Below, piece after piece: positions 5,737 to 25,364 of a stretch of DNA of 64,000 nt. Within the stretch, counting starts at the first letter, position 1. Each line of letters starts with the position of its first letter. The DNA is taken from assembly GCA_036381495.1 (NCBI GenBank), contig DASVCS010000015.1, forward strand, positions 5,687-69,686, written 5' to 3'. Source of the DNA: Longimicrobiales bacterium (lineage in GTDB: Bacteria > Gemmatimonadota > Gemmatimonadetes > Longimicrobiales > RSA9). The notes beneath the pieces were generated by a model. The model was not told the DNA's origin. It saw only the letters and a list, made by a program, of their open reading frames with translations, and ran no database searches. The position numbers and the translations under genes are program-made.

Positions 5737-7620
5737 ATGACCTGGACGATCGACGATTCCCGCGAACTGTACAACATCGACGGCTGGGGAATCGATTACT
5801 TCGGGATCAACGAGAAGGGGCACGTCACGGTCCATCCGACCAAGGACCCCGACCGAGGCCTCGATCTCTTCGAGTTGGCCATGGATCTCGAGGCCCAGGG
5901 CGTGGGGCTGCCGCTCCTGCTGCGCTTCTCGGACATCCTCCGCACGCGCATCGAGACGCTCACCGAGCGGTTCCGTACCGCGATCCGGGAATTCGGCTAC
6001 GAGGGCGAGTATACGACGGTCTACCCGATCAAGGTGAACCAGCAGCGGCACGTGGTCGAGGAGATCGTGGGGTTCGGCGAGCGCTACGGCGCGGGACTCG
6101 AGGTGGGGAGCAAACCCGAGCTCCAGGCGGTGCTGGCGCTGACCGAGCGGACGGATCACATGATCATCTGCAACGGCTACAAGGATGAGGAGTACATCCG
6201 GCTGGCGCTGATCGGGCAGAAGCTCGGGCACACGGTGCTGATCGTGATCGAGAAGATCGGCGAGGTGGACACGCTGCTGCGGGTCGCCGCCGAGATGGAC
6301 GTGCGGCCGACGGCGGGTGTGCGCATCAAGCTGTCGGCGACCGGTGCGGGCCGTTGGTCGGAGACGGCGGGCGAGCGGAGCAAGTTCGGCTTGAACGCGT
6401 CGCAGTTGGCGCGGGTCCTGGACAAGCTCGAAGCGGCCGGGCGGCTGGACATCCTGAAGATGGTGCATTTCCACCTGGGCTCGCAGATCCCGGACATCCG
6501 GAACGTGAAGCTGGCGATGACGGAGGTCTCACGCTTCTACGTCGAGCTGCGCAAGCTCGGGGTGGATATCACGTACGTGGATGTGGGCGGCGGGCTGGGC
6601 GTCGACTACGACGGCTCGCGTTCGACGGCGTCGGCGAGCGTGAACTATTCGATCCAGGAGTACGCGAACGACATCATCTACTCGCTGGCCGAGGCGTGCC
6701 GGGAGGCCGAGATCCCGATGCCGCACGTGATCTCGGAGTCGGGTCGAGCGCTGACGGCGCATCACGCGTTGCTGCTGATCAACGTGGTGGATCTCGAGAC
6801 GCAGATCGAGGAGGTGCCGGAGTCGGTCCCCGAGGATGCCCATCCTCTGGTCCAGGAGCTGGCCGCGACGCTGCGCGAGGTGGGCGAGCGGGGCGTGCGG
6901 GAGGTGTACCATGACGCGTCGTTCGCGAGGGACCAGATGCGGACGCACTTCAACAGCGGCGTGCTGACGTTGCGGGAGCGTGCGTTGGCGGAGCGGCTGT
7001 ACCTCGCGATCATGAACCGGGTCGCGCAGCTCGTGTCGAACGATCCGGAGGAGTACGACGACATCCTGCCGGAGCTCGAGGCGATCCTGATCGATCGGTA
7101 TTTCTGCAACTTCTCGCTGTTCCAGTCGCTACCGGACTCGTGGGCGATCGACCAGCTCTTCCCGATCCTGCCGATCCACCGTTTGGACGAAGAGCCGACG
7201 CGGCGCGGGACGCTCCAGGACGTGACGTGCGATTCGGATGGAAAGATCGACCGGTTCATCGGTCCGCGCGCTCCGAAGCCGAGCCTGGAGCTGCACACCT
7301 TCCGGCCGGACGAGCCGTACATTCTGGGGATCTTCCTGACCGGCGCGTACCAGGAGATCCTGGGCGATCTCCACAACCTGTTCGGTGACACCAACGCGGT
7401 GCACATCCGGCTGACGGCCACGGGCTACGAGGTGGGCAACCTGGTCCACGGCGACACGATCACCGAGGTCCTGAACTACGTGCAGTTCAACGCACAGGAC
7501 CTGATCACCACGTTTCGGCGGAAGGTGCAGAACGCGCGGAACATCAGTCGGGCCGAGGCCAATGCCTTCATTGCGGATTACATCGGCGGGCTGGCGGGGT
7601 ACACGTATCTGGAGGGCTAG
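5737..7620 (+). CDS. speA: Biosynthetic arginine decarboxylase
   Basis: ORF 5341..7620(+), trimmed to the ATG at 5737. MTWTIDDSRELYNIDGWGIDYFGINEKGHVTVHP...LLLRFSDILRTRIETL...YPIKVNQQRHVVEEI is the typical SpeA N-terminus plus PLP-barrel. 627 aa. Confidence 0.9.
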   Translation: MTWTIDDSRELYNIDGWGIDYFGINEKGHVTVHPTKDPDRGLDLFELAMDLEAQGVGLPLLLRFSDILRTRIETLTERFRTAIREFGYEGEYTTVYPIKVNQQRHVVEEIVGFGERYGAGLEVGSKPELQAVLALTERTDHMIICNGYKDEEYIRLALIGQKLGHTVLIVIEKIGEVDTLLRVAAEMDVRPTAGVRIKLSATGAGRWSETAGERSKFGLNASQLARVLDKLEAAGRLDILKMVHFHLGSQIPDIRNVKLAMTEVSRFYVELRKLGVDITYVDVGGGLGVDYDGSRSTASASVNYSIQEYANDIIYSLAEACREAEIPMPHVISESGRALTAHHALLLINVVDLETQIEEVPESVPEDAHPLVQELAATLREVGERGVREVYHDASFARDQMRTHFNSGVLTLRERALAERLYLAIMNRVAQLVSNDPEEYDDILPELEAILIDRYFCNFSLFQSLPDSWAIDQLFPILPIHRLDEEPTRRGTLQDVTCDSDGKIDRFIGPRAPKPSLELHTFRPDEPYILGIFLTGAYQEILGDLHNLFGDTNAVHIRLTATGYEVGNLVHGDTITEVLNYVQFNAQDLITTFRRKVQNARNISRAEANAFIADYIGGLAGYTYLEG

Positions 7621-7645
7621 GGCTAGGGCTAGGGCTGGGGCTAGG
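7614..7645 (+). repeat. (GGGCTA)3-GGGCTG-GGGCTA hexamer array (repeat family A, minimal copy)
   Basis: Read directly. The array fills the whole convergent intergenic spacer. It contains the speA TAG (7618-7620) and the CTA (7641-7643) that is the stop of the minus-strand gene. Confidence 0.9.
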
Positions 7646-8681: not shown

Positions 8682-8846
8682 GCCTTCCTCCGGTCCGACC
8701 TCCGGTCCGACTCGAGCGTCATGAGGATGATGCTCCGGGTGCGTTGACGGCAAGACCGGCGCCCGCCGGGCGCCGGATGTCGGACGTTGCGCGACGATGG
8801 GGTCGTCACGTACTCTACGGGTACGTGGAACAGCCCGAAGGACCGT

Positions 8847-9737
8847 ATGCACACGTCGATCGAATCTCTGCTCCGCGATGCGGAACGCACGGGTGCGCGA
8901 CTCCCCGACGTGGTTCTCGATCTGGAGGTGGCGGAGAGTGGGCAGGCGCCGGAGGAGATCCGCGCGCGCCTGCGCCGTACGCTCGAGGTCATGCGTTCCG
9001 CGATCGAGGAGGGGTTGAAGGGCGAGGTCCGTTCTCCCTCGGGGTTGACGGGCGGGCGCGCCGCGCGGCTGTGGCGGGACGGGCCGCGGCTGTTGGGCCC
9101 GCGAGTGACGGCCACGCTTGCGCGCGCCATTGCGACGCTCGAAGTGAACGCCGCCATGGGGTTGATCGTGGCGGCGCCGACGGCGGGCGCCGCGGGCGTG
9201 CTCCCGGCGGTGCTGCTCGGGACCGAGGAAGCGTTCGGACAGGACATCGACGACGAACGACTGGTCGATGCCATGCTGGTGGCCGGCGGAGTCGGCGGGG
9301 TGGTGGCGCACCGTGCTTCGCTCGCGGGTGCCGAAGGCGGGTGTCAGGCGGAAACGGGGTCGGCGGCCGCCATGGGTGCGGCGGCGGTCTGCTGGCTCGG
9401 CGGCGGAACGCACGAGCAGGTCGCGACGGCCGTCGCGCTGTCGCTCCAGGGGATGCTCGGCCTGATCTGCGACCCGATCGGCGGCCTGGTCGAAATCCCG
9501 TGCATCTACCGGAACGCGTCGGCGGCCATGCAGGCGATCGCCGGGGCGGAGATGGCGTTGGCCGGGCTGGATTTCCCCGTGAGCGCGGACGAGGTGATCG
9601 ACGTGATGGGCGAAGTCGGCCGGAAGATGCCCGTCGCGTACCGGGAGACGGCGCTGGGCGGGCTGGCGGCGACGCCGTCCGCGCGGCGGCTGGTGCAGAT
9701 CCAGCCGTCGCGGCGACCGACGGGGATCAGCGGCTGA
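8847..9737 (+). CDS. sdaAA: L-serine ammonia-lyase (iron-sulfur dependent), alpha subunit
   Basis: ORF 8787..9737(+); ATG at 8847 (MHTSIESLLRDAERTG...). It contains ATLEVNAAMGLIVAAPTAGAAGVLPAVL and GGCQAETGSAAAMGAAAV, the SdaA alpha signature. Confidence 0.85.
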   Translation: MHTSIESLLRDAERTGARLPDVVLDLEVAESGQAPEEIRARLRRTLEVMRSAIEEGLKGEVRSPSGLTGGRAARLWRDGPRLLGPRVTATLARAIATLEVNAAMGLIVAAPTAGAAGVLPAVLLGTEEAFGQDIDDERLVDAMLVAGGVGGVVAHRASLAGAEGGCQAETGSAAAMGAAAVCWLGGGTHEQVATAVALSLQGMLGLICDPIGGLVEIPCIYRNASAAMQAIAGAEMALAGLDFPVSADEVIDVMGEVGRKMPVAYRETALGGLAATPSARRLVQIQPSRRPTGISG

Positions 9738-9753
9738 GCGGCGGAGGCGGCGC

Positions 9754-10419
9754 GTGGTCTCTCTCTTCGACGTTCTGGGCCCGGTCATGGTCGGCCCATC
9801 CTCTTCGCACACGGCCGGCGCGTGTCGACTGGGGCTCATGGCGCGCGCGATCCTCGGCGGCACGCCGGAGCGCGCGCACATCGCGCTGCACGGTTCGTTC
9901 GCCGCGACGGGGGAGGGTCACGGCACACACCGCGCCATCGTGGGCGGGCTGATCGGGTTGGCCCCCGATGACCTCCGTCTGCGCCATGCGTACGCCGAGG
10001 CCGAAGCCGTGGGGTTGCATTGGGAGTTCGCGAAGGTCGACCTCGGTGAGGGCGCGCATCCGAACACCGCGGTGTTCAAGATCGAACGGGACGGCGAGAC
10101 GGTCGAGCTCCGCGGCGCCTCCGTCGGCGGCGGGCGGATCGAAGTGACCGAGATCGACGGCTTCCCGGTCTCGCTCAGCGGCGGGTATCACACCCTGGTC
10201 GTGCTCGCGCACGACGAGCCGGGCACGATCGCCACGATCGCCGGGATCTTCGCGCACGACCGCGTCAACCTTGCCACCATGCGAGTCGACCGGACCGGCC
10301 GGCACAAGGACGCGCTGATGACGATCGAGGCCGACGAGCCGATCTCGGACAAGGCGCTCGCCGAGATCCGCGCGCACGCGTGGCTCCGTTGGGCGCGGCG
10401 GATCGAGAAAATCTCGTGA
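9754..10419 (+). CDS. sdaAB: L-serine ammonia-lyase, beta subunit (with ACT domain)
   Basis: MVSLFDVLGPVMVGPSSSHTAGACRLG is the SdaA beta N-terminal signature. The C-terminal ACT-like segment is HTLVVLAHDEPGTIATIAGIFAHDRVNLATMRV. Confidence 0.85.
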   Translation: MVSLFDVLGPVMVGPSSSHTAGACRLGLMARAILGGTPERAHIALHGSFAATGEGHGTHRAIVGGLIGLAPDDLRLRHAYAEAEAVGLHWEFAKVDLGEGAHPNTAVFKIERDGETVELRGASVGGGRIEVTEIDGFPVSLSGGYHTLVVLAHDEPGTIATIAGIFAHDRVNLATMRVDRTGRHKDALMTIEADEPISDKALAEIRAHAWLRWARRIEKIS

Positions 10420-10528
10420 TGGCGCCCGTGCGCGCGGCGTACGGCGCACGGATCGACGCGTACGCGCGGCGGCCGACCACGAAACGGCCGCGGCGACATC
10501 CTCGCGGCACCGATCGCAGGAGATCGAC

Positions 10529-12568
10529 ATGATGTTTCCGGTTCGTTTGCGGCAGCGCGCCGCCGGCTCCTGGCTGTTGCTGTGCGCGCTGTCCCTTCCC
10601 CTCCCTCTCGCGGCGCAGACCCATGCCGGCACGACCGATGGCTGGACCCCGGCGCTGAGCATGCGCTACCGGACGATCCAGGGCACGGCCGTTTCTCCCG
10701 ATGGCGAGCGCGTGGCGTACGTGGTGCGCGAGCCGGTGATGGAGGGGGATCAGTCGGAGTGGCGGAGCCAGATCTGGCTCGTCGCGGCGGATGGCAGTCG
10801 CAACGTCCAGTACACGCGGGGCGAGGAATCGGCGAGTTCGCCGAGCTTCTCGCCCGACGGCCGGCTGCTGGCGTTCACGTCGTCGCGTTCCGGCGAGAGG
10901 CAGGTCTGGATCCTCCCGGTCGACGGCGGCGAGGCGTGGCAGCTCACGGATGCCGAGAGCGGCGTGTCGTCGTTCCGCTGGTCGCCGGACGGCGCGCGCA
11001 TCGCCTACACCATGCGGGATCCGGAGACGGAGGCCGAGAAGAAGGCGAAGGAGGAGAAGCGCTACGTCATCGTGGTCGACCAGGACTTCAAGTACAACCA
11101 CCTGTACGTGGTCGACCTCGAGCCGGACACCGCGGGTGAGCGTGAGGCGCGGCGGCTGACCGAGGGCGCGTTCCACGTCACGTCGTTCGACTGGTCCCCG
11201 GACGGACGCTCGATCATCTTTGCGCGCCAGCCGGATCCGCGGCTCGACACGGGGTACCGCTACGGCGACATCGCGGTGGTCTCGGTCGAGGGTGGTGCGC
11301 CGAAGCCGCTCGTGACGTGGGATGGCGTGGACGGCGACCCGCTCTACTCCCCCGACGGCCGCTGGATCGCCTTCGTCTCGACCGGCGAGCGCCCGGAACC
11401 GGTGGGGCTGGGCGACGTGTACGTGGTGCCCGCGGAGGGCGGCGCGCCGCGGAGGCTCGCGGAGACGCCGGACCGCAACGCGCGCTTGATCGGGTGGTCC
11501 GCCGATGGCGAGAGCGTCTACGTCACGGAGCCGGTCGGGACCACGCGGCAGGTCCTCGCCGTGCCGCTGGACGGGAGCCCGGTCCACGCCGTAACGGAAG
11601 GCGAGGGCGTCTTCGGCTCCGTCTCGATCGCCGCCGACGGCTCGCGGATGGCGTTCACCTTCGAGACGCCCGCTACGCCGGCGGACGTCTACATCTCGCC
11701 CGTGGCCGATTTCTCCATGACGCGCCTCACTGACGTGAACCGCGACATCCCGCGTCCACCGATGGGCCGGACCGAGCTGGTCCACTGGACGTCCAAGGAC
11801 GGCACGCCGGTCGAAGGCCTGCTGACCTATCCGGTCGGCTACCGCGAGGGCCAGCGGGTCCCACTGATCCTCAACGTGCACGGCGGCCCGGCGGGCGTGT
11901 TCACGCAGTCGTTCACCGGCGGGCCGAGCATCTACATGCTCCAGTACTTCGCGCAGGAGGGCTTCGCCGTCCTGCGGCCGAATCCGCGCGGGAGCACCGG
12001 TTACGGCAAGGAGTTCCGGTACGCCAACGTCGAGGACTGGGGCTACGGCGACTTCGAGGACCTGATGAGCGGCGTGGACCACGTCATCGCGATGGGCGTG
12101 GCGCATCCGGACAGCCTGCTGCTGATGGGGTGGAGCTACGGCGGCTACATGACGTCGTTCGCGGTGACGCGGACGGATCGCTTCAAAGCGGCGAGCATGG
12201 GTGCCGGACTTCCGGACCTGATCAGCATGGTGACGACGACGGACATCGGTCGCTACCTGGAAGCGCACATGGGCGGCCCGTTCTGGGAGGACTACGAGAC
12301 CTACCAGAAGCATTCGGCGATCTACCACATCGAGGACGTGCACACGCCGACGCAGGTGATTCACGGCGCGGAAGACCTGCGGGTGCCGTTCACGCAGGGG
12401 CAGGAGTTCTACCGGGCGCTGCGCCGCCTGGGCGTACCGACCGAGATGATCGTGCTGCCGCGCACGCCGCACGGGCCGCGCGAGCCGAAGCTGCTCATGG
12501 AGGTCTCGCCGCGTATCCTCGCATGGTTCACGAAGCACCTGCGTGGGGGCGGCGTGGCGGTGAATTGA
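10529..12568 (+). CDS. S9-family serine peptidase (beta-propeller plus alpha/beta hydrolase), secreted
   Basis: Signal peptide MMFPVRLRQRAAGSWLLLCALSLPLPLAAQ. TolB-like propeller repeats (SPDGERVAYV, SPDGRLLAFT, SPDGARIAYT, SPDGRSIIFA, SPDGRWIAFV). Catalytic GWSYGG motif, then the D/H region. Confidence 0.85.
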   Translation: MMFPVRLRQRAAGSWLLLCALSLPLPLAAQTHAGTTDGWTPALSMRYRTIQGTAVSPDGERVAYVVREPVMEGDQSEWRSQIWLVAADGSRNVQYTRGEESASSPSFSPDGRLLAFTSSRSGERQVWILPVDGGEAWQLTDAESGVSSFRWSPDGARIAYTMRDPETEAEKKAKEEKRYVIVVDQDFKYNHLYVVDLEPDTAGEREARRLTEGAFHVTSFDWSPDGRSIIFARQPDPRLDTGYRYGDIAVVSVEGGAPKPLVTWDGVDGDPLYSPDGRWIAFVSTGERPEPVGLGDVYVVPAEGGAPRRLAETPDRNARLIGWSADGESVYVTEPVGTTRQVLAVPLDGSPVHAVTEGEGVFGSVSIAADGSRMAFTFETPATPADVYISPVADFSMTRLTDVNRDIPRPPMGRTELVHWTSKDGTPVEGLLTYPVGYREGQRVPLILNVHGGPAGVFTQSFTGGPSIYMLQYFAQEGFAVLRPNPRGSTGYGKEFRYANVEDWGYGDFEDLMSGVDHVIAMGVAHPDSLLLMGWSYGGYMTSFAVTRTDRFKAASMGAGLPDLISMVTTTDIGRYLEAHMGGPFWEDYETYQKHSAIYHIEDVHTPTQVIHGAEDLRVPFTQGQEFYRALRRLGVPTEMIVLPRTPHGPREPKLLMEVSPRILAWFTKHLRGGGVAVN

Positions 12569-12571
12569 GGG

Positions 12572-12592
12572 GGCGGCGCCGTTGGCGCCGCC
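12572..12592 (+). terminator. GC hairpin 4 nt after the S9 peptidase stop
   Basis: GGCGGCGCC-gtt-GGCGCCGCC: a 9-bp perfect stem with no U-tract. It is immediately followed by the hexamer array. Confidence 0.35.
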
Positions 12593-12831
12593 GGGCTGGG
12601 GCTGGGGCTAGGGCTAGGGCTAGGGCTGGGGCTGGGGGTGCCCGGGAGGGGGTGCGGTGGAGGGGAGGAAGGCCCGGGTATGACCGACAGCGGTGGGAGC
12701 GGGCTGGGAACGGCCGGGAGCGGGAGCGGGAACGTTTACGTTTACGTTTACGGGAGCGGGATGGGGGCGGCCGGGGGCGGGGTGCGGGACGCGCGCGCGC
12801 TCGCGCACGGGAGGGGCTGGGGGCGGCGGGG
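12593..12831 (+). repeat. Repeat family A, composite G-rich element (copy A)
   Basis: Seven GGGCTR hexamers (12593-12634), then GGTGCGGTGGAGGGGAGGAAGGCCCGGGTATGACCG, then GGGAGC/GGGAAC hexamers, then (GTTTAC)3 within 12731-12754, then a GGGACGCGCGCGCG module. Colinear with 24946-25330. Confidence 0.85.
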
Positions 12832-12869
12832 ATCCAACGGGAAATCGCATGAACATCCGCGAGGGAGGG

Positions 12870-14744
12870 ATGATGAAGCACAGCGCGAGGATGATGCTGG
12901 TCGCCGCGGGGTTCGGCCTGTGCGCGGCGCTCGGGGCGCCGCCGGGGCTGGAGGCGCAGCAGACGGCCAAGCCGGTGCTGCATGGGAAGCACTGGGTGGC
13001 GATCACGGGGAAGCCGCTGGGGGCGACGGCGGGTGCGATGATCTTCCAGCGCGGCGGCAACGCGGTGGATGCGGCGTGCGCGATGCTGGCGGCCGTATCC
13101 ACGATGTGGGACGTGCTGAGCTGGGGCGGCGAGACGCAGGCGCTCATCTACAACCCGCACACGGGCGAGGTGATCGGCATCAACGCGCTGGGCGTGGCGC
13201 CGACGGGCGCGACGGCGGAGTTCTTCCGGGAGAAGGGGATGCGCTACCCGCCGGAGTACGGCCCGCTGGCGGCGGTGACGCCGGGGACGCCGGGCGGCCT
13301 CATGACGATGCTGGCCGAGTGGGGCACGATGTCGCTCGCGGACGTGCTCGCGCCGGCGATCGAGATGGCCGAGGGCTACCCGATCGAGGCGCAGACGGCC
13401 AACAGTATCGAGCGGGAAAAGGAGCGCATCAAGCAGTGGCCGTACTCGAAGGCGCTGTTCCTGCCGCACCTCGGGGAGGAGCGCGAGGCGCCGTACCCGG
13501 GCGAGGTCTTCCGCCAGCCGGACCTGGCGGCCACGCTCCGGAAGCTGGTCGAGGCCGAGCAGGAGGCGCTGGCGCAGGGGAAGAGCCGGAAAGAGGCGAT
13601 CTACGCCGCGTACGACCGGTTCTACAAGGGCGACATCGCCCGCGAGATCGTGCGCAGCGTCCGTGAACAGGGCGGCCTCTTCACGATGGAGGACCTGGCG
13701 AACTGGCAGGTGCACATCGAGAAGCCGGTGCACACGAACTACAAGGGGATCGAAGTCTACAAGCTGACGCACTGGATCCAGGGGCCGGTGCTCCTCCAGA
13801 TGCTGAACATGCTCGAGAACTTCGACCTGAAGGCGATGGGCTACAACAGCGCGCGCTACATCCACACGCTGTATCAGGTCATGAACCTGGCGTTCGCGGA
13901 CCGGGACTTCTATTACGGCGACCCGTACTTCCCGCCGGAGGAGCCGATCGAGGGGTTGCTCTCGAAGGAGTATGCGAAGCAGCGGATCCAGGAGATCGAC
14001 TGGGAGCGCAACGATCCGAACGCGGCGCCGGGCGACCCGTACCCGTTCCAGGGCGGGACGAATCCGTTCCTGGACCTGCTCGAGCAATGGAAGCGCCCGA
14101 CCACGGTGTCGCTCGGTGCGTGGACCCCGGAGGCGCTGCGCGAGTTCGACGAGGCGTTCTACGCGGGGACGACGTCGATTCAGGCGGCGGACGAGGAGGG
14201 CTGGGTCGTGTCCGTGACGCCGAGCGGCGGGTGGGTCCCCGCGGTCATCGCGGGCCACACCGGTGTCGGCTTGAGTCAGCGTATGCAGGCGTTCGTGGTG
14301 GAAGCGGAAGACGGCCCGTACAACGTGGTCGAGCCGGGGAAGCGCCCGCGCGCCACGCTGACGCCGAGCCTGGCGTTGAAGGATGGCAAGCCGTTTCTCT
14401 CGTTCGCGGTCCAGGGCGGCGACAGCCAGGACCAGAACCTGCTCCAGTTCTTCCTGAACGTGGTCGAGTGGGGGATGAACGTACAGGAGGCGGCCGAGGC
14501 GGCGAACATCAACAGCTTCCAGATGCACAGCTCGTTCGGCCAGCACGAGTCGGTGCCGGGACGGTTGCTGCTGAACGAGGCGACGCCGCCGTGGGTGCGC
14601 AGCAAGCTGCGGGAGATGGGGTACCGGCTGACGTTCGACGACCGCACCTCCGGGCCGATCAACGCGATCTACTTCGACCGCGAGCACGGGACGTTCTGGG
14701 GCGGCTCGAGCAATCACGGCGAGGATTACGGGATCGCCTGGTAG
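12870..14744 (+). CDS. ggt: Gamma-glutamyltranspeptidase-family hydrolase, secreted
   Basis: ORF 12693..14744(+), trimmed to the ATG at 12870 (GAGGGAGGG just upstream). Signal MMKHSARMMLVAAGFGLCAALGAPPGLEAQ. The family N-terminus is GKPLGATAGAMIFQRGGNAVDAACAM. The nucleophile region is YAGTTSIQAADEEGWVVSVTPSGG. Confidence 0.8.
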   Translation: MMKHSARMMLVAAGFGLCAALGAPPGLEAQQTAKPVLHGKHWVAITGKPLGATAGAMIFQRGGNAVDAACAMLAAVSTMWDVLSWGGETQALIYNPHTGEVIGINALGVAPTGATAEFFREKGMRYPPEYGPLAAVTPGTPGGLMTMLAEWGTMSLADVLAPAIEMAEGYPIEAQTANSIEREKERIKQWPYSKALFLPHLGEEREAPYPGEVFRQPDLAATLRKLVEAEQEALAQGKSRKEAIYAAYDRFYKGDIAREIVRSVREQGGLFTMEDLANWQVHIEKPVHTNYKGIEVYKLTHWIQGPVLLQMLNMLENFDLKAMGYNSARYIHTLYQVMNLAFADRDFYYGDPYFPPEEPIEGLLSKEYAKQRIQEIDWERNDPNAAPGDPYPFQGGTNPFLDLLEQWKRPTTVSLGAWTPEALREFDEAFYAGTTSIQAADEEGWVVSVTPSGGWVPAVIAGHTGVGLSQRMQAFVVEAEDGPYNVVEPGKRPRATLTPSLALKDGKPFLSFAVQGGDSQDQNLLQFFLNVVEWGMNVQEAAEAANINSFQMHSSFGQHESVPGRLLLNEATPPWVRSKLREMGYRLTFDDRTSGPINAIYFDREHGTFWGGSSNHGEDYGIAW

Positions 14745-14761
14745 GGGGCGGCCGATCCGGG

Positions 14762-15469
14762 CTACAACGGCTGGTCGAGGTCGGGGCGGTAGCGTGCGAC
14801 GGCCCGGCGCGTGATGGCGAAGGCGAAGAGCGCGGCGGCCGCGAGCGCCACGAGGAGCACGGAGGCCGCGGCGGGGAGCGCCCACGGCGGGATGGGGCCA
14901 TCGCGGAGCGCTACGGCGACGTCGGCGGGCCGGACGCGCTCGGCGATCCGGAGCAGCAGAATCACGGCGAGGGCGACGACGACGAGGGGCCAGCGGAGCA
15001 GTCGGGCGAACTCGAACGCGGCCGCCGCAGCGACCAAGACCCAGGAGGCGATGGAGAGCAGGAGCCAGAACCCCACGGTCGCGGCCGCGAGCAGCCCGCC
15101 GTGCAGGACGTCGAATGGTGTGGGCAGGTCGACCGCGGCCACGGCGATCCCAGCGAGCGCCGCCCCCGGCGCGAGCGCGAGTGCGGCGGCGGCGAACCGG
15201 GCCGCGGCGATTTCGCCGGCGGTCGCCGGCAGCGTGCACAGGAACTCGAGCGTGCGCTCCATCTTGTCGCGCACGATGGTCATCGGCGCGAGCAGGGTCG
15301 CGCCGATGGGCGTACCGATGAAGGCCGCCAGCAGGTTTTCCGTCGATGCCTTCCCGAGCAGGATGAACAACGCGGCCAGCACGAGCGCGGCGCCCTGAAC
15401 GCGGAGCACGGTTGGAGCAAGTCGCCGCAGCTCGAGGCCGAGGAGCGCCTTGAAGTGGCCCGCGCTCAT
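14762..15469 (-). CDS. ABC-2-type transporter permease (about 6 TM segments)
   Basis: ORF 14762..15655(-), trimmed to the ATG at 15469, which overlaps the TGA of the ATPase gene (ATGA). The sequence is hydrophobic throughout (MSAGHFKALLGLELRRLAPTVLRVQGAALVLAALFILL...). Confidence 0.7.
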   Translation of the reverse strand: MSAGHFKALLGLELRRLAPTVLRVQGAALVLAALFILLGKASTENLLAAFIGTPIGATLLAPMTIVRDKMERTLEFLCTLPATAGEIAAARFAAAALALAPGAALAGIAVAAVDLPTPFDVLHGGLLAAATVGFWLLLSIASWVLVAAAAAFEFARLLRWPLVVVALAVILLLRIAERVRPADVAVALRDGPIPPWALPAAASVLLVALAAAALFAFAITRRAVARYRPDLDQPL

Positions 15470-16242
15470 CGGCCTTCGAGGAGCCCGTACAGCGCGCCCG
15501 CCACGGAGCCTTCCCGCGCGCGCAACGCTTCGAGCGTGGTGTCGGCGCAGAGGACGCCCTGTTTGAGGACGACCACCCGCTCCGCCAACCACTCGACATC
15601 TTCCAGGAGGTGCGTCGAGAAGAGGACGATGCGGTCGCCGCCCGGCGGGGCGCATTCGCGGATGATCTCGATGACTTCGCGGCGCACGACGGGATCGAGG
15701 CCGGAGGTCGGCTCATCGAGCAGGAGCAGCGGCGGCCGGTACGCTTCGGCCGCGACGAACGAGAGCTTGACCCGCATCCCCTTCGAGAGCGCGCCCAGCT
15801 TCACCTCGTCGCGGAGCCCGAGCCGCGCGAGGAGCGACCGCTCGTAGTCGCGGTCCCAGGTCGGGAAGAAGCGCCGCAGGAAATCGAGATGCTGTCGCAC
15901 CGTCAACCACCGGTAGCCCAGCAGATCCTCAGGTACCAGCCCGATGCTCGTCCGGATCGCCGGGAGCGCGGACCGGACCTCGACGCCGTCGAGGTAGATG
16001 CCGCCGCGGTAGTCCGCGGCGAGCCGCCCGGCGATCGCCTTCAGGGTTGTGGTCTTCCCCGAGCCGTTGGGCCCGACCAGTGCGACCGCCTCGCCGCCGT
16101 GGAGGACGAGCGACATCGGTTCGAGCGTAAAGAGCGGGTAAGTCACCGAGAAGGCGCGCAGCTCGAGGCGTCGCTCCACCGGATGCGGCGGGCTGGTCGT
16201 GGCCTCCCCCCTCATCGTGGCGACCGTGGCCTCCGGTCTCAT
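15466..16242 (-). CDS. ABC transporter ATP-binding protein
   Basis: Walker A GPNGSGKTT, signature LSKGMRVKL, Walker B LLLLDEPTSGLD and an H-loop STHLL. The start is 16242 or 16215. Confidence 0.85.
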   Translation of the reverse strand: MRPEATVATMRGEATTSPPHPVERRLELRAFSVTYPLFTLEPMSLVLHGGEAVALVGPNGSGKTTTLKAIAGRLAADYRGGIYLDGVEVRSALPAIRTSIGLVPEDLLGYRWLTVRQHLDFLRRFFPTWDRDYERSLLARLGLRDEVKLGALSKGMRVKLSFVAAEAYRPPLLLLDEPTSGLDPVVRREVIEIIRECAPPGGDRIVLFSTHLLEDVEWLAERVVVLKQGVLCADTTLEALRAREGSVAGALYGLLEGR

Positions 16243-16693
16243 GTGCCCATCGAGTTTCGTATCGGGTGCGCGATTCCGCCGAGCCGGATCGTGCTACGAC
16301 ACGCGCCGAGGACCGGCTCGCGAGCTCGTCGTGTATGATCCGGTCGAAGCGGCGCGGCGGTGGCGGCCCGGCCCTCGAACCGCGCGACCAGGACGGCAAC
16401 GGCCATCAAGATAGCGCTGCACGGGGCGCGGCGGCGAGCGTCGGCATGCGACCCCGGGTCGCGGATGGATGCGGGCCGTGGCGGCCGAGGGACGCCGAAC
16501 CCTTGCTGCGCCGCAGGTTGCGCGGGGTCGTGCGGCGCGGTAACGTTCGCGGTTGCGCGCAAGCAGACCGTTCGATCGTGAGGAACCGCGTGGAGAGCGA
16601 AGTCGTCGTGGATGCGCGCGCCGGTGGTTCGGCGCGCCGGGCGCGGTGCCCCGGCCGATCCGTGGGACCCGAGGCGCCGGCGGATCGGGTCGG

Positions 16694-18637
16694 ATGACTC
16701 CGCAGGTCACGCTACGGCGCCCGACGCAGCCGGCCGAGGCCGCGAGCGCCGCCAGCGCGCACGAAGGGGAGCCGCGCGGACGCTATCTGGTGATGCTCTC
16801 GCTGACGGCGCTCGGCGTCGTCTTCGGCGACATCGGCACCAGCCCGCTCTACGCGCTCCGGGAGTGCTTCTTCGGCGAGCACGCCGTGGCGGTGACGGCC
16901 GCGAACGTGCTAGGCGTGTTGTCGCTCATCTTCTGGGCGCTCATCCTGGTCATCTCGGTCAAATACCTGACGTTCATCCTGCGCGCGGACAACCGCGGCG
17001 AGGGCGGGATCCTGGCGCTGATGGCGCTGGCGCGCCCCGAGGCGCGGGGGACGCCGGCGCGTCTGCCGCGCCTTGCCGCTTTCGGCATCTTCGGCGCTGC
17101 GCTGCTCTACGGGGACGGGATGATCACGCCGTCGATCTCGGTACTCAGCGCAGTGGAAGGGCTCGAAGTCGCGACGCCGGTGTTCCGGCCATACGTGATC
17201 CCGATCACGGTCGGGATCCTGGTGGCGCTTTTCCTGTTGCAACGTCGCGGCACCGCAGGGGTCGGCGCGATCTTCGGTCCCGTCACGCTGGTGTGGTTCA
17301 CGACGCTGGCGGGGCTCGGAATCCGGCAGATCATCCGCGAGCCATCGGTGCTCGCGGCGGTGAGCCCGCTGCATGCCGTCGACTTCTTCGTCCGCAACGG
17401 CGTCATCGGGTTCTTCGTGCTGGGCGCGGTCTTCCTGGTGGTGACGGGCGGCGAGGCGATGTACGCGGACATGGGCCACTTCGGGCGCCGCCCGATCCGG
17501 CTTGCCTGGTTCGGACTCGTCCTGCCGGCGCTGCTGCTCAACTATTTCGGCCAGGGCGCGCTCCTGCTGCACACGCCGGAGGCGGCGCACAACCCGTTCT
17601 ACCGGCTCGCGCCGGGGTGGGCCCTGATCCCGCTGGTCGTGTTGGCGACGGCGGCGACGGTCATCGCGTCGCAGGCGGTGATCTCGGGCGCATTCTCGCT
17701 GACCATGCAGGCCGTGCAACTCGGGTTCAGCCCGCGCGTGCACATCGACCACACGTCGGCCGAGGAGTTCGGCCAGATCTACATTCCCGGCATCAACTGG
17801 ACCCTGATGCTGGCGTGCATCGCGCTGGTCATCGGGTTCCGGACATCGAGCAACCTCGCGGCCGCGTACGGCGTGGCCGTGACCACCGACATGGTCTTCG
17901 CCTCGATCCTCTTCTTCGCGGTCCTCCGCGGCCGCTGGCGCTGGAGCGTGTGGGCCGCGCTCGCACTCGTCGGCGCGTTCCTGACCATGGACCTGTCGTT
18001 CTGGGGCGCGAACATCGTCAAGGTTCCCGATGGCGGCTGGGTCCCGCTCGCCGTCGCCGCCACGATCTTCACGCTCATGACGACGTGGAAGCGAGGCCGC
18101 GGGATCCTTGCCCGACGCCTGAACTCCACCTCCATTCCCTTCGATGCGTTCCTCGAGGGACTGATCGCGCACCCGCCGGTGCGCGTCCCCGGGACGGCCG
18201 TCTTCATGACCGGCAACCCCGGCGCCACGCCGCCGGCGCTGTTGCACAACCTCAAGCACAACCAGGTGCTGCACGAGCAGGTCGTCCTCCTCACCGTGGT
18301 GATGGAAGAGGTCCCGCACGTGCCTCGCTCCCGGCGCATGCAGCTCGAGGAGCTCGGCGGCGGCTTCTACCGCCTGACCGCGCGGTACGGCTACATGGAA
18401 GAGCCTGACGTGCCGAAGGTCCTCACGCAGGCCGGGCGCCTCGGCCTGCACACCGACCTCATGCGCACCACTTTCTTTCTCGGTCGCGAACACCTCATCG
18501 CCTCCCGCAAGCGGGGAATGGCCCTCTGGCGCGAAAAGCTCTTCGCACTCCTCACCCGCAACGCCACCAGCGCCACCGCCTTCTTCCGGATTCCGCCCAA
18601 CCGGGTCGTCGAGATGGGGATGCAGATCGAGATCTGA
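16694..18637 (+). CDS. kup: KUP/HAK/KT potassium uptake transporter
   Basis: ORF 16553..18637(+), trimmed to the ATG at 16694. LTALGVVFGDIGTSPLYALRECF...ADNRGEGGILALMAL...TGGEAMYADMGHFG are diagnostic Kup motifs. Confidence 0.9.
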   Translation: MTPQVTLRRPTQPAEAASAASAHEGEPRGRYLVMLSLTALGVVFGDIGTSPLYALRECFFGEHAVAVTAANVLGVLSLIFWALILVISVKYLTFILRADNRGEGGILALMALARPEARGTPARLPRLAAFGIFGAALLYGDGMITPSISVLSAVEGLEVATPVFRPYVIPITVGILVALFLLQRRGTAGVGAIFGPVTLVWFTTLAGLGIRQIIREPSVLAAVSPLHAVDFFVRNGVIGFFVLGAVFLVVTGGEAMYADMGHFGRRPIRLAWFGLVLPALLLNYFGQGALLLHTPEAAHNPFYRLAPGWALIPLVVLATAATVIASQAVISGAFSLTMQAVQLGFSPRVHIDHTSAEEFGQIYIPGINWTLMLACIALVIGFRTSSNLAAAYGVAVTTDMVFASILFFAVLRGRWRWSVWAALALVGAFLTMDLSFWGANIVKVPDGGWVPLAVAATIFTLMTTWKRGRGILARRLNSTSIPFDAFLEGLIAHPPVRVPGTAVFMTGNPGATPPALLHNLKHNQVLHEQVVLLTVVMEEVPHVPRSRRMQLEELGGGFYRLTARYGYMEEPDVPKVLTQAGRLGLHTDLMRTTFFLGREHLIASRKRGMALWREKLFALLTRNATSATAFFRIPPNRVVEMGMQIEI

Positions 18638-18673
18638 GATCAGGTTCGCGGGAACCGGTCAGTGTTACTGCAC

Positions 18674-18788
18674 GGGAACGGGAGCGGCGGCTGCGCCGCC
18701 TGGAGCGGGAACGTTTACGTTTACGGGAAACGGGAGCGCCCTCCGTGCCCGTAAACGTAAACGTTCCCGCTCCCGTTCCCGCTCCCGG
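18674..18788. repeat. Repeat family A, palindromic copy (26-bp perfect stem)
   Basis: GGAGCGGGAACGTTTACGTTTACGGG (18702-18727) is the exact reverse complement of 18748-18773, with a 20-nt loop. 18680-18728 is identical (49/49) to 25055-25103. A C-rich hexamer tail (GTTCCCGATCCCGCCCGATCCC) continues to about 18905. Confidence 0.9.
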
Positions 18789-18973
18789 AGGTCACCCCGA
18801 ATCGCGCACGGTCCATGCGAACTTGATCTGAGGGAGCGGCGCAGTCGCGGCGCCTGTCCCTGCAAGCGTTGTCGCTGCCGTTCCCGATCCCGCCCGATCC
18901 CGTCGCGGCCAGACGTAATTCGCCGAGCCGAGCCTGAAATTCGAGCGTCCTGTCCGGGTGTACCGCGGTGCGC

Positions 18974-19002
18974 TTGACACTTCGGTGTTTGTTCGGTATC
19001 CT
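18974..19002 (+). promoter_or_regulatory. Sigma70-like promoter of the radical-SAM gene, with direct repeats in the spacer
   Basis: TTGACA (18974-18979), a 17-nt spacer, then TATCCT (18997-19002). The spacer carries TTCGGT twice with an 11-nt period (18981, 18992). The ATG is at 19029, preceded by GGAGGGGGA. Confidence 0.5.
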
Positions 19003-19028
19003 GTCGGCGGAATCAGCCGGAGGGGGAG

Positions 19029-24746: not shown

Positions 24747-24952
24747 GGAATCGCCTGAGGGTGCTGCGAGCGGAGCGGGGTTGGTCGCAGGTCGAGCTGG
24801 CGGAGCGGCTGGGGGTTTCGCGACAGACGGTGAACGCGCTCGAGAACGACCGCTACGATCCGAGTCTGCCGCTGGCGTTCAGGATCGGCCGGCTGTTCGG
24901 GCTGCCGATCGAGGAGATCTTCTTGGATGGGGGCGCGCAGGAGGAGGGCTAG
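24743..24952 (+). CDS. Small XRE-family HTH regulator (YozG-like)
   Basis: This is the tail of ORF 24212..24952(+) from the GTG at 24743: VRNRLRVLRAERGWSQVELAERLGVSRQTVNALENDRYDPSLPLAFRIGRLFGLPIEEIF. The stop TAG lies in the first hexamer of repeat copy B. Confidence 0.8.
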   Translation: MRNRLRVLRAERGWSQVELAERLGVSRQTVNALENDRYDPSLPLAFRIGRLFGLPIEEIFLDGGAQEEG

Positions 24953-25330
24953 GGCTAGGGCTAGGGCTAGGGCTGGGGCTGGGGCTGGGGTTGCCCGGGA
25001 GGAGGTGCGGTGGAGGGGAGGACGGCCCTGGTATGGCCGGGAACGGCCGGGAGCGGGAGCGGCGGCTGCGCCGCCTGGAGCGGGAACGTTTACGTTTACG
25101 GGAGTGGCGGCGGCCGGGACGGGGGGCGATGGAGGGCGGAACGGCCGGGAAGGGCCCGGGAGGGCGTGTGGTGGAGGGGGAAGGGCCGGGTATGGCCCGG
25201 AGGGGGCGGAGCGCGGTTGATGCGGCGCCGTCGGGACGTACGGACGGGCGGGGCATGGCGGGGAGCGGTGTGGTGGAGGGGGCGGTGGGACGCGTGCGCG
25301 TACACGGTGGGCATGGGGGCTTCGGGCGAG
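24946..25330 (+). repeat. Repeat family A, composite G-rich element (copy B, with internal triplication)
   Basis: Seven GGGCTR hexamers (24946-24987), then the same modules as 12593-12831 plus a GGCGGC-tgc-GCCGCC hairpin module. (GTTTAC)2 is at about 25088-25099. The GGTG(C/T)GGTGGAGGGG module occurs three times (about 25005, 25170, 25268). Confidence 0.85.
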
Positions 25331-25364
25331 CGGCTGAGATGAACGGCGGGATGGAGGGGTGACC

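What the first reader, a model, noticed from the sequence alone, without database searches (positions are those of the whole stretch)
12572..12831. Composite G-rich, hexamer-periodic element (family A, copy A) between the S9 peptidase and GGT genes
Four nucleotides after the TGA comes a perfect 9-bp hairpin (GGCGGCGCC-gtt-GGCGCCGCC). The following modules then occur in order:
- Seven GGGCTR hexamers.
- GGTGCGGTGGAGGGGAGGAAGGCCCGGGTATGACCG.
- GGGAGC/GGGAAC hexamers.
- (GTTTAC)3.
- A GGGACGCGCGCGCG module, ending about 40 nt before the GGT start.

The module order is colinear with 24946-25330. Almost the whole 300-bp spacer is this element. It is strongly G-rich on the sense strand, so the transcript would be G4-prone, and it has a 6-nt periodicity without a conserved reading frame. 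I do not recognise it as any described REP/BIME/MITE class.
Basis: seen in the sequence. Interest (0 to 1): 0.7.

Follow-up and report, generated by a model that had tools for sequence, protein, structure and literature searches.

The report
G-rich hexamer-repeat mosaic after stop codon
The 300-base gap between a peptidase gene and a gamma-glutamyltranspeptidase (GGT) gene in this probably Gemmatimonadota genome is filled by a non-coding, guanine-rich patchwork of six-base tandem repeats. It recurs at three other gene ends nearby and is a new variant of the quadruplex-prone repeats already described next to stop codons in Xanthomonas and Nostoc.

Summary
At 12572-12831 every listed module is present, and copy B (24946-25335) is colinear with it (85-89% identity over 100-157 nt). 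Partial copies lie at 7613-7645 and 18673-18790, the latter as an inverted pair that forms a long hairpin. The spacer is 54% G, holds four canonical G4 motifs and has strong lag-6 periodicity. It shows no better-than-random Watson-Crick fold, no shared reading frame, no terminal inverted repeats and no Rfam, plasmid or phage match.

The 9-bp hairpin is not part of the repeat family. It is the GC-rich post-stop hairpin that many genes in this window carry.

The (GGGCTR)n module is not unique to this genome. In six loci from three other Gemmatimonadota MAGs it also begins -2 to +27 nt from a stop codon. It is G-rich on the sense strand in 9 of 9 cases. This matches the G4-forming simple-sequence repeats described in Xanthomonas and Nostoc.

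The non-repeat core was found only in this window and in one soil metagenome contig.

Best reading: a lineage-specific mosaic of G4-prone microsatellites, spread by recombination or template switching, lying in the transcribed spacer. Its function (a stop-proximal RNA quadruplex barrier that Rho cannot load on) is inferred, not shown.

Verdict: new variant of a known kind, moderate interest.

The parts
10529..12568 (+). Upstream gene: S9 family (prolyl oligopeptidase-type) peptidase, stop TGA at 12566-12568
   Evidence: Pfam Peptidase_S9 E=2e-48 plus PD40 repeats. Closest homologues are 69-75% identical; the named ones among them are from Gemmatimonadota MAGs.
12572..12592 (+). Perfect 9-bp GC hairpin with loop GTT, 3 nt after the stop. 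A generic post-stop hairpin, not a module of the repeat family.
   Evidence: Sequence. It forms in the MFE of the 45 nt after the stop. It is absent from copy B. Similar hairpins without a U-tract follow many other stops in the window.
12593..12640 (+). (GGGCTR)7 array plus GGGGTG. Forms canonical G4 motifs.
   Evidence: TRF 7.5 copies; 15 matches against 0 expected; PQS at 12593-12652; two three-layer G4s predicted by ViennaRNA with the gquad model.
12641..12693 (+). Non-repetitive module GCCCGGGAGGGGGTGCGGTGGAGGGGAGGAAGGCCCGGGTATGACCG, with Shine-Dalgarno-like GGAGG motifs
   Evidence: Two mismatches to 25004-25039. Weaker copies lie at 25154-25194 and about 25265.
12695..12733 (+). GGGAGC / GGGCT / GGGAAC hexamer block
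   Evidence: D2; PQS at 12695-12730.
12734..12751 (+). (GTTTAC)3
   Evidence: TRF. The same module occurs at 18711-18725, 18750-18764 (inverted) and 25086-25100.
12752..12841 (+). G-tract tail (GGGAGCGGGATGGGGGCGG...) that encloses an alternating-CG tract, GGGACGCGCGCGCGCTCGCGCACG, at 12786-12809. Two further G4 motifs.
   Evidence: PQS at 12752-12788 and 12809-12841. Copy B has the matching GGGACGCGTGCGCGTACACGG at 25288-25308.
12870..14744 (+). Downstream gene: gamma-glutamyltranspeptidase with an N-terminal signal-peptide-like segment. GAGGGAGGG lies just upstream of ATGATG.
   Evidence: Pfam G_glu_transpept E=1.5e-107, domain from residue 58; sequence.
24946..25335 (+). Copy B. The (GGGCTR)7 array begins inside the last codons of an XRE-type HTH gene (GAG GGC TAG, four in-frame TAGs), followed by the same modules in the same order. 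It ends about 30 nt before the amidohydrolase start (ATG 25366).
   Evidence: Pfam HTH_3 and Amidohydro_1.
7613..7645 (+). Partial copy: only a (GGGCTR)5.5 array, filling the 20-nt gap between a convergent arginine decarboxylase gene (+) and an FAD-binding ORF (-). Both stop codons lie inside the array.
18673..18790 (.). Partial copy: an inverted pair of (GGGARC)n(GTTTAC)2 modules that forms a long hairpin 36 nt after the Kup K+ transporter stop. The left arm is 98% identical to 25048-25103.
   Evidence: D2; fold of 18635-18830, MFE -124 kcal/mol, z=-10.3. A sigma-70-like promoter at 18974-19002 follows it.

Best explanation
What it is (shown). It is a non-coding, lineage-specific mosaic intergenic repeat. 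It is built mainly from G-tract hexanucleotide microsatellites ((GGGCTR)n, (GGGARC)n, (GTTTAC)n) plus a few unique G-rich modules. Whole composites (A, B) and single modules (7613, 18673) are scattered over gene 3' ends. The G-rich strand is the sense strand of the flanking genes.

How it arose (inferred). The arrays grow by replication slippage. Adjacent modules are copied between loci by recombination or template switching at the arrays, not by transposition.

How it works (inferred). A and B contain no recognisable promoter, so the spacer is probably transcribed with the upstream gene. The (GGGCUR)n tract directly at or after the stop codon would fold into a stable three-layer RNA quadruplex (or a DNA G4 on the non-template strand). 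That structure occupies the position where other genes of this genome carry a GC hairpin.

I take it to act as a stop-proximal structural barrier. It would shield the upstream message from 3' exonucleases and keep terminating ribosomes from sliding on. Because it is C-poor, it offers Rho no loading site, so read-through to the downstream gene is preserved. Where two arrays lie inverted (18673, and L170) the same modules instead form a long hairpin at the end of a transcription unit.

My confidence in the identity is about 0.85. My confidence in the functional part is about 0.35.
For: Repeat structure and chance.

Not coding:
- A and B read in different frames through the GGTGGAGGGG module, and translation gives low-complexity peptides.
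- The B ORF has no homologue among 5.8 billion proteins.

No canonical fold: z=-1.1 and -1.2.

G4 potential:
- 8 of the 12 plus-strand G4 motifs in the 64 kb window lie in these elements.
- Mean G4Hunter is 1.25 (A) and 1.17 (B), against 0.06 for the window.
- Allowing G4s lowers the predicted MFE from -130 to -170 kcal/mol (A) and from -176 to -253 kcal/mol (B).

Position and strand:
- Arrays begin at -2 to +27 nt from a same-strand stop codon in the three window loci and in L032, L036, L061, L077, L088 and L102.
- That is 9 of 9 with the G-rich strand as sense.
- By a strict automated rule, 3 of 5 Gemmatimonadota arrays abut a sense stop, against 4 of 49 non-coding arrays in other high-GC taxa.
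- Spacers of co-directional genes elsewhere in the window are mostly 50-120 nt with GC skew between -0.28 and +0.25. A and B are 301 and 413 nt with skew +0.45 and +0.47.

Post-stop hairpins are common in this genome, while canonical U-tract terminators are not above chance (3 found against 5.9 expected).

Promoters are recognisable elsewhere as TTGACA-17-TAnnnT (18974 and 24197; 27547 read). None lies in A or B.

Recent exchange between loci: 98% identity over 56 nt between 18673 and 25048. No terminal inverted repeats.

Precedent: G4-forming SSRs within 50 bp of stop codons on the coding strand, between aligned ORFs, mostly transcribed (PMC4692102). Stable structure just downstream of stop codons as a translation insulator (PMC7518266).
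Against: - No expression, 3'-end or structure-probing data exist for this organism. Transcription of the spacer, G4 folding in vivo and any effect on expression are all inferred.
- Rehm et al. could not show a regulatory role for the analogous repeats.
- rG4s are reported to be selected against in the bacteria tested so far (Guo & Bartel 2016, as summarised in PMC8191793).
- Only about 45 nt of each element is the stop-proximal array. The model gives no specific role to the remaining 200-350 nt.
- Gene orientation and replication direction are confounded in the window, so the strand bias could partly reflect replication.
- The sample is small: 4 loci in 64 kb, plus 6 loci from 3 MAGs that were selected by the search pattern itself.
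- The three closest available S9-gene neighbourhoods (L177-L185, about 55 kb of distinct sequence) contain no such arrays.
Confidence: 0.45

Rival explanations
1. Neutral or selfish by-product. The arrays are slippage-prone microsatellites, with hitch-hiking flanks, that accumulate wherever they do no harm. They reach up to the stop codon because nothing is needed there, and they stop about 30-40 nt short of the next start because the ribosome-binding region must be kept. The sense-strand G bias exists only because the opposite (C-rich) orientation would create Rho loading sites and be purged, or because of a replication-strand mutational bias. No positive function.
For: - Arrays fill whole spacers but spare the last 30-40 nt before the next start.
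- Units and module content vary freely between loci and between genomes.
- (GGGCTR)4 occurs in many unrelated high-GC taxa, often inside coding sequence.
- No function was found for the Xanthomonas and Nostoc analogues.
- The closest relatives' loci lack the arrays.
Against: - 9 of 9 sense orientation and tight abutment to the stop codon are stronger than simple tolerance predicts. Selection against rut-like orientation could still explain the strand bias.
- Arrays occupy the exact position where other genes in the window carry hairpins.
- Composite units with 85-98% identity between loci imply recent spread or homogenisation.
Confidence: 0.3
2. Quadruplex or R-loop based transcription terminator or attenuator. 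The G-rich non-template strand and the G-rich transcript form G4 or R-loop structures that stall RNA polymerase between S9 and GGT. This would substitute for the U-tract terminators that the genome seems to lack.
For: - Canonical terminators are not above chance in 19 kb.
- The element starts at the stop codon.
- The inverted version at 18673 sits at the end of a transcription unit, with a promoter downstream.
- G4-dependent termination is established for mitochondrial RNA polymerase at CSB II (from my own knowledge).
Against: - Neither A nor B is followed by a recognisable promoter, although promoters elsewhere in the window are easily recognised. Termination here would leave GGT and the amidohydrolase without transcription.
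- No bacterial precedent is known to me.
Confidence: 0.1
3. Cis-regulatory leader of the downstream exported hydrolase genes. The GGAGG- and GGA-rich tract would act as a ribosome standby or decoy platform, or as a multi-site target for a GGA-binding regulator of the CsrA type.
For: - GGAG and GGAGG are enriched over dinucleotide shuffles in the non-array parts: A has 9 GGAG against 3.7 expected and B has 16 against 7.2; GGAGG is 5 against 1.9 and 10 against 3.7.
- Both full copies precede genes for signal-peptide-bearing hydrolases (GGT, amidohydrolase).
- Genes in this window use GGAGG-like ribosome-binding sites.
Against: - The enrichment comes from a few repeated modules, so the counts are not independent.
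- The partial copies at 7613 and 18673 are at gene ends with no such downstream gene.
- No conserved secondary structure and no Rfam hit.
- Presence of a CsrA-type protein in this genome is unknown.
Confidence: 0.08
4. Non-autonomous mobile element (MITE, or a REP/BIME mobilised by a RAYT transposase).
For: - It is dispersed, intergenic, mosaic and modular, like BIME and BOX elements.
- Near-identical segments occur at different loci.
Against: - No terminal inverted repeats or target-site duplications (and reading).
- The core is not palindromic.
- No transposase or RAYT was found among the 17 genes checked by Pfam.
- No match in plasmids, phages or viral contigs.
- Copies differ by module gain and loss rather than having fixed ends.
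Confidence: 0.04
5. Translated sequence: an N-terminal extension of GGT (the frame is open from GTG 12693), or a small ORF starting at the Shine-Dalgarno-like GGAGGA-N11-ATG (12680 in A, 25033 in B).
For: - All three plus-strand frames are largely open.
- An ATG follows a Shine-Dalgarno-like motif in the shared module.
- The B ORF ends 3 nt before the amidohydrolase ATG. A frame-1 ORF in A ends in ATGA at 12849-12852.
Against: - Open frames are expected in T/A-poor sequence.
- The A and B peptides are unrelated in the shared module and are low-complexity.
- The ATG frame in A runs 342 codons out of frame through GGT.
- The B ORF has no homologues.
- The GGT Pfam domain and the signal-peptide-like segment fit the 12870 start.
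- Three TAGs close the GGT frame inside the array.
Confidence: 0.02

Closest known systems
G4-forming simple sequence repeats of Xanthomonas and Nostoc (GGGAATC / GGGGAYT; Rehm et al. 2015, PLoS One, PMC4692102)
   Same: - Tandem 6-9-nt units, each with a G3+ tract, giving canonical G4 motifs.
- Over-represented in non-coding DNA between co-directional ORFs.
- Most lie within 0-50 bp of the stop codon or overlap it, on the coding strand.
- Inverted copies can form hairpins.
- Associated genes are ordinary metabolic genes.
- Function is unresolved.
   Different: - The unit is a hexamer (GGGCTR), not a heptamer, and the phylum is different.
- Here the array is only the first module of a 260-390-nt colinear composite. 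The composite includes other hexamer arrays (GGGARC, GTTTAC), unique G-rich modules and an alternating-CG tract, and it is itself dispersed.
- Genome-wide abundance and the preference for four units could not be tested.
REP / BIME elements of enterobacteria and pseudomonads
   Same: - Short dispersed extragenic repeats that sit after stop codons within or at the end of operons.
- Combined with other motifs into mosaics (BIMEs).
- Thought to act as RNA structures that protect upstream mRNA. When within about 15 nt of a stop codon they interfere with translation termination (Liang, Rudd & Deutscher 2015; from my own knowledge).
   Different: - REPs are imperfect palindromes that fold as hairpins and are linked to RAYT transposases.
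- The core of A and B has no palindrome and no better-than-random fold. Its predicted structure is a quadruplex.
- Only the 18673 and L170 versions are palindromic, and they are so by inversion of whole arrays.
Ribosome termination structure (RTS; Chemla et al. 2020, PMC7518266)
   Same: A stable mRNA structure centred a few nucleotides downstream of the stop codon. [quoted passage not shown] The 12572-12592 hairpin and the stop-abutting arrays occupy exactly this position.
   Different: The RTS is defined by Watson-Crick folding energy, not by sequence families or quadruplexes. No experimental link exists for G4s.
BOX elements of Streptococcus pneumoniae and STRR/LTRR repeats of heterocystous cyanobacteria
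   Same: Modular intergenic repeats with a variable number of internal units (boxB), or tandem heptamer arrays in intergenic DNA. The recognised modules are lineage-restricted.
   Different: They have different sequences, are not G-tract based, and show no reported stop-codon abutment or sense-strand lock (from my own knowledge; not tested here).

Membership tests
G4-forming SSR class (Rehm et al. 2015) | Tandem units of 6-9 nt, each carrying a run of at least three G, with at least four units giving a canonical G4 motif | tested here: met
   (GGGCTR)7 at 12593-12634, with 7 and 5.5 units in the other copies. The canonical G3N1-7 motif scan is positive. G4s appear in the ViennaRNA gquad MFE.
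G4-forming SSR class (Rehm et al. 2015) | Located in non-coding DNA, preferentially between co-directional ORFs, within 50 bp of the stop codon or overlapping it, on the coding strand | tested here: met
   Window copies begin at 0, +25 and 0 nt from the stop. The six other Gemmatimonadota loci begin at -2 to +27 nt. All 9 are G-rich on the sense strand of the upstream gene.
G4-forming SSR class (Rehm et al. 2015) | Unit sequence GGGNATC / GGGGAYT | tested here: not met
   The units here are GGGCTA/GGGCTG hexamers. It is therefore a different member of the class, not the described repeat.
G4-forming SSR class (Rehm et al. 2015) | High genome-wide abundance with a preference for four units | not testable with these tools
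   Only 64 kb of a 72.9-kb contig is available, and the source genome could not be retrieved. Density in the window is 4 loci per 64 kb.
G4-forming SSR class (Rehm et al. 2015) | K+-dependent quadruplex formation in vitro | not testable with these tools
   Only prediction is available.
REP / BIME | Imperfect palindrome of 20-40 nt that folds as a stem-loop | tested here: not met
   The folds of A and B are no better than shuffles (z=-1.1 and -1.2). No inverted repeats of at least 10 nt were found other than a CG palindrome. The 9-bp hairpin is not shared between copies.
REP / BIME | Association with a RAYT (IS200/IS605-like Y1) transposase gene in the genome | not testable with these tools
   None was found among the 17 window genes scanned. 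The rest of the genome is unavailable.
MITE | Terminal inverted repeats and target-site duplication with constant ends | tested here: not met
   No terminal inverted repeats. The ends of A and B fade into different flanks with no duplicated target.
Intrinsic (Rho-independent) terminator | GC-rich stem-loop immediately followed by a U-tract | tested here: not met
   The scan of 7000-26000 finds no site in any of the four loci. The hairpin at 12572-12592 is followed by GGGCTGGGG.
Any Rfam RNA family (riboswitch, leader, sRNA) | Covariance-model match | tested here: not met
   No hit at gathering score in the window. No hit at E<=1 in A or B. Only sub-threshold generic miRNA-hairpin hits on the 18.7-kb palindrome.
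Phase-variable contingency SSR | Repeat lies inside an ORF or between promoter elements, so that unit changes switch expression | tested here: not met
   The arrays lie after the stop codon. The unit is 6 nt, so it preserves the frame. The flanking genes are housekeeping or metabolic.

The most novel reading that the evidence does not exclude
Some Gemmatimonadota may use an orientation-locked G-quadruplex element, embedded in or abutting the stop codon, as their standard 3'-end or inter-cistronic RNA structure in place of hairpins. On this reading the arrays, together with accessory modules (Shine-Dalgarno-like tracts, an alternating-CG tract), form a modular 'G-BIME' that is actively propagated and homogenised between gene ends. 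That would be a positively selected rG4 system in bacteria, contrary to the view that bacterial transcriptomes avoid rG4s.
Probability: 0.15. Interest if true: 0.75.

Novelty: new variant of a known kind. Interest (0 to 1): 0.45.

Why it matters
RNA quadruplexes are thought to be depleted from, and harmful to, the bacterial transcriptomes studied so far (Guo & Bartel 2016, via PMC8191793). The only described family of bacterial G4 microsatellites (Xanthomonas and Nostoc) has no known function.

A second, unrelated phylum shows the same stop-codon-abutting, sense-strand-locked placement. Here it comes with a different unit and as part of a larger dispersed mosaic. This suggests the placement reflects a general constraint or function of the region just after stop codons (ribosome release, 3'-end protection, Rho avoidance), not a quirk of one lineage.

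Gemmatimonadota have cultured members, so the question is testable with Term-seq, rG4-seq and reporters.

There is also a practical point. These elements inflate spacers to 300-400 nt, supply stop codons to upstream genes, and generate long spurious ORFs that can mislead gene callers in high-GC MAGs.

Tried and rejected
It did not find the source genome. It did reveal six Gemmatimonadota loci.

2. The metagenome scan for GGAACGTTTACGTTTACG gave 60 hits. On inspection, 59 are unrelated. Only L170 is a true relative.

3. Look-ups of window proteins to retrieve the source contig failed. The closest S9 homologues (69-75% identity) have no conserved synteny and no arrays, so no orthologous spacer comparison was possible.

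4. A protein search with the ORF that spans copy B, meant to catch mis-called ORFs over other copies, gave no hits.

5. BLAST and nhmmer with the non-SSR core against all held loci found copies only in the window and in L170.

6. Searches of plasmids, phages and viral contigs gave nothing.

7. Rfam gave nothing.

8. An ECF-sigma promoter reading of GGGAAC...CGTT was rejected by eye because the spacing is wrong (21-30 nt rather than 16-17).

9. A TRAP-like (G/U)AG-N3 binding array and a CsrA sponge were considered. Neither could be tested, because the genome's protein complement is unavailable.

10. An assembly artefact was considered unlikely. The copies differ by 2-15%, and each is embedded between intact genes. 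Read support could not be checked.
Full report
**Observation**

The S9 peptidase gene (10529-12568; Pfam Peptidase_S9 and PD40) ends with TGA at 12566-12568. The gamma-glutamyltranspeptidase gene starts at ATGATG 12870. This start fits the Pfam domain, which begins at residue 58, and an N-terminal signal-peptide-like segment.

- the 9-bp hairpin at 12572-12592;
- seven GGGCTR hexamers at 12593-12634, followed by GGGGTG;
- the 36-nt module at 12651-12686;
- GGGAGC/GGGAAC hexamers at 12695-12733;
- (GTTTAC)3 at 12734-12751;
- a G-tract tail that encloses GGGAC(GC)n at 12786-12809.

None of the modules is expected by chance. There were 15, 5 and 2 matches against 0 in shuffles.

The spacer is 54% G and 22% C. 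Its GC skew is +0.45, whereas every other spacer in the window lies between -0.28 and +0.25. Lag-6 autocorrelation is z=7.8.

**Other copies**

Copy B (24946-25335) lies between an XRE-type HTH gene and an amidohydrolase gene. It is colinear with A: 89% over 101 nt (D7), 84.7% over 157 nt, and the alignment. It differs from A in three ways:
- it lacks the left hairpin;
- it carries an internal GGCGGCTGCGCCGCC hairpin module;
- it repeats the GGTGGAGGGG module two more times.

Its hexamer periodicity disappears once the GGGCTR array is removed (z=1.1).

Two partial copies exist.
- 7613-7645 is only a (GGGCTR)5.5 array. It fills the 20-nt gap between convergent genes, and both stop codons lie inside it.
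- 18673-18790 is an inverted pair of (GGGARC)n(GTTTAC)2 modules. It forms a very strong hairpin (-124 kcal/mol, z=-10.3) 36 nt after the Kup transporter stop, upstream of a good TTGACA-17-TATCCT promoter. Its left arm is 98% identical over 56 nt to the inside of copy B (D2).

BLAST and nhmmer find no further copies in the window.

**What it is not**

- *Not protein-coding.* All frames are open, simply because the sequence is poor in T and A. A and B are read in different frames through the shared GGTGGAGGGG module. The peptides are low-complexity and unrelated. The ATG frame of A would run 342 codons out of frame through GGT. The B ORF has no homologue in 5.8 billion proteins.
- *Not a structured RNA of a known family.* Rfam gives nothing. 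The Watson-Crick folds are no better than shuffles (z=-1.1 and -1.2).
- *Not a MITE or REP.* It has no terminal inverted repeats, no palindromic core and no constant ends. No mobile-element genes lie nearby. It has no match in plasmids, phages or viral contigs.
- *Not a canonical terminator*.

**The hairpin**

The 12572-12592 hairpin should be separated from the element. Copy B does not have it. GC-rich hairpins without U-tracts follow many other stop codons in the window, for example after the genes ending at 2413(-), 30880, 31666, 39517(-), 46831 and 59493(-). It is the S9 gene's own post-stop hairpin.

**G-quadruplex potential**

Eight of the twelve plus-strand canonical G4 motifs in the 64 kb lie in these elements. 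Mean G4Hunter scores are 1.25 (A) and 1.17 (B), against 0.06 for the window. With ViennaRNA's quadruplex model the predicted MFE drops from -130 to -170 kcal/mol (A) and from -176 to -253 kcal/mol (B). Three-layer G4s are placed in the GGGCUR arrays. These are predictions only.

**Wider distribution**

The source is a 72.9-kb contig. Its S9 protein has no relative above 75% identity, and the named homologues are from Gemmatimonadota MAGs. The source genome could not be retrieved. The three closest S9 neighbourhoods share neither synteny nor arrays.

The (GGGCTR)4 scan of species-representative genomes was too general, with hits in many high-GC phyla, many of them coding. It did include six loci from three Gemmatimonadota MAGs:
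- L032 and L102 (one Gemmatimonadales MAG);
- L036 (a Gemmatimonadaceae MAG);
- L061, L077 and L088 (one Longimicrobiales MAG).

In all six the array is non-coding, lies on the sense strand of the upstream gene, and starts -2 to +27 nt from its stop.
- In L102, as at 7618 and 24950 in the window, the junction reads GAG GGC TAG, so the repeat supplies the stop codon.
- In L032 and L036 the whole spacer is made of hexamer arrays up to about 30-40 nt before the next start.
- In L036 a heptamer array (AGGGTTC)4 and its inverted complement sit after a stop between convergent genes.
- In L088 (GGGCTG)4 is followed by (GTGCCC)n.

By a strict automated rule, 3 of 5 testable Gemmatimonadota arrays abut a sense stop, against 4 of 49 non-coding arrays in other high-GC taxa. 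Similar stop-abutting composites occur in a Xanthomonadales genome (L031) and in a Verrucomicrobia MAG (L017).

The non-SSR core is much rarer. The 18-mer GGAACGTTTACGTTTACG found only one true relative among the metagenome contigs. This is L170, a 65% GC soil contig in which an inverted pair of (GGGAAC)2(GTTTAC)2 forms a hairpin about 35 nt after a response-regulator stop.

**Comparison with the literature**

Rehm et al. 2015 (PMC4692102) described G4-forming SSRs (GGGAATC, GGGGAYT) in Xanthomonas and Nostoc. Those repeats are:
- intergenic, and preferentially between aligned ORFs;
- mostly within 0-50 bp of the stop codon or overlapping it, on the coding strand;
- mostly transcribed;
- able to form hairpins when inverted;
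- without demonstrated function.

The (GGGCTR)n module meets the structural and positional criteria of this class but has a different unit and phylum.

Chemla et al. 2020 (PMC7518266) showed that stable mRNA structure centred about 5 nt after stop codons is widespread and limits re-initiation. The hairpin and the arrays occupy that position.

rG4s are reported to be depleted in the bacteria tested (Guo & Bartel 2016, as summarised in PMC8191793). This makes sense-strand G4 arrays in transcribed spacers noteworthy.

**Most likely explanation**

*Shown.* It is a lineage-specific, non-coding mosaic of G-tract hexamer microsatellites plus a few unique modules. It is dispersed over gene 3' ends with the G-rich strand as sense, and segments have been exchanged between loci recently.

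*Inferred origin.* The arrays grow by slippage, and modules spread by recombination or template switching at the arrays. Transposition is unlikely because the copies have no ends typical of transposons.

*Inferred function (about 0.35).* The spacer is co-transcribed, since A and B contain no promoter while TTGACA-17-TAnnnT promoters are obvious at 18974, 24197 and 27547. The stop-proximal array folds as an rG4 that plays the role of the post-stop hairpin: 3'-end protection and translation insulation. Its C-poor composition denies Rho a loading site, so the downstream gene is still expressed. Inverted arrays give long hairpins at unit ends.

*Main rival (0.3).* The arrays have no function and are merely tolerated. 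On this view the position is set by the need to keep the ribosome-binding region free, and the orientation is set by selection against C-rich, rut-like transcripts or by replication bias.

*Lesser rivals.*
- A G4 or R-loop terminator.
- A Shine-Dalgarno-like or GGA-rich regulatory leader. GGAG is enriched in the non-array parts (9 against 3.7 expected in A, 16 against 7.2 in B), but the counts are not independent.
- A mobile element.
- Coding sequence.

**Limits**

- There are no transcript or structure data.
- Only 64 kb of the genome is available.
- The comparative loci were ascertained by the pattern itself.
- Gene orientation and replication direction are confounded.
- MAG read support could not be checked.

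**Verdict**

This is a new variant of a known kind (the G4-SSR class, extended to a hexamer unit, a new phylum and a dispersed composite architecture). Interest is moderate.

Noticed in passing
window 27332-27396, 40579-40643, 54657-54721: A second, unrelated dispersed repeat of about 90 nt (62-80% identity, three copies, all intergenic). Its predicted consensus structure has a TTCGGA...TCCGAA stem and a few compensatory pairs. No Rfam match.
   Followed up: partly
window, downstream of many stop codons (e.g. 2413(-), 30880, 31666, 39517(-), 46831, 59493(-)): GC-rich hairpins without U-tracts commonly follow stop codons. Canonical hairpin-plus-U-tract terminators are not above chance in 7000-26000 (3 found against 5.9 expected). 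The organism probably does not rely on classical intrinsic terminators.
   Followed up: partly
window 18974-19002, 24197-24225, 27547-27575: Clear sigma-70-like promoters (TTGACA, 17 nt, TAnnnT) lie upstream of the radical-SAM gene, the membrane-protein/XRE pair and the BlaI-type repressor gene. Promoters are therefore recognisable in this genome, and they are absent from elements A and B.
   Followed up: partly
window 12641-12869 and 24994-25365: Shine-Dalgarno-like GGAG/GGAGG motifs are 2-3 fold enriched over dinucleotide shuffles in the non-array parts of A and B, while GGGG runs are under-represented. The shared module carries GGAGGA-N11-ATG.
   Followed up: partly
window 12849-12852 and 25360-25368: Long open frames through the elements end exactly at the downstream start regions: ATGA overlap at 12849-12852, and TGA 3 nt before ATG 25366. 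This is probably a consequence of T/A-poor sequence ending where normal composition resumes. It also resembles a translational-coupling junction.
   Followed up: no
window 12786-12809 and 25288-25308: Alternating purine-pyrimidine (CG/CA) tracts of 12-16 nt, which are Z-DNA prone, are conserved near the 3' end of both full copies. The composite therefore clusters several non-B-DNA motifs (hairpin, G4, Z-prone tract).
   Followed up: no
window 7618-7644 and 24950-24970; L102, L077: Where the array overlaps the gene end, the stop codon is the TAG of the repeat unit (junction GAG GGC TAG). It is followed by 1-3 further in-frame TAGs at 6-nt spacing, which form a tandem-stop arrangement.
   Followed up: partly
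window 27437-27547: A C-rich tract on the plus strand (two minus-strand G4 motifs; G4Hunter -1.3 to -1.4) lies in the spacer just upstream of the promoter of the BlaI-type repressor gene. It is not related in sequence to family A.
   Followed up: no
L036 3265-3331; L177 19216-19301; L031 around 5009-5032 (on the minus strand); L088 around 718-743 (on the minus strand): Other period-6/7 intergenic arrays in related or unrelated genomes:
- L036: (AGGGTTC)4 plus its inverted complement after a stop between convergent genes.
- L177: (CGGCGAC)12 between divergent genes.
- L031 (Coralloluteibacterium): (GGGCTG)n + (GGGGCTC)n + inverted (CCCCGTG)n after a stop.
- L088: (GGGCTG)4 + (GTGCCC)n between polA and ssb.
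   Followed up: partly
window 29962-30593 and 29205-29268: The 96-nt periodic direct repeats are coding: they are HEAT repeats of the 29030-30880 protein (Pfam HEAT_2). A separate 25-nt tandem repeat (2.6 copies) lies near the 5' part of that ORF.
   Followed up: partly
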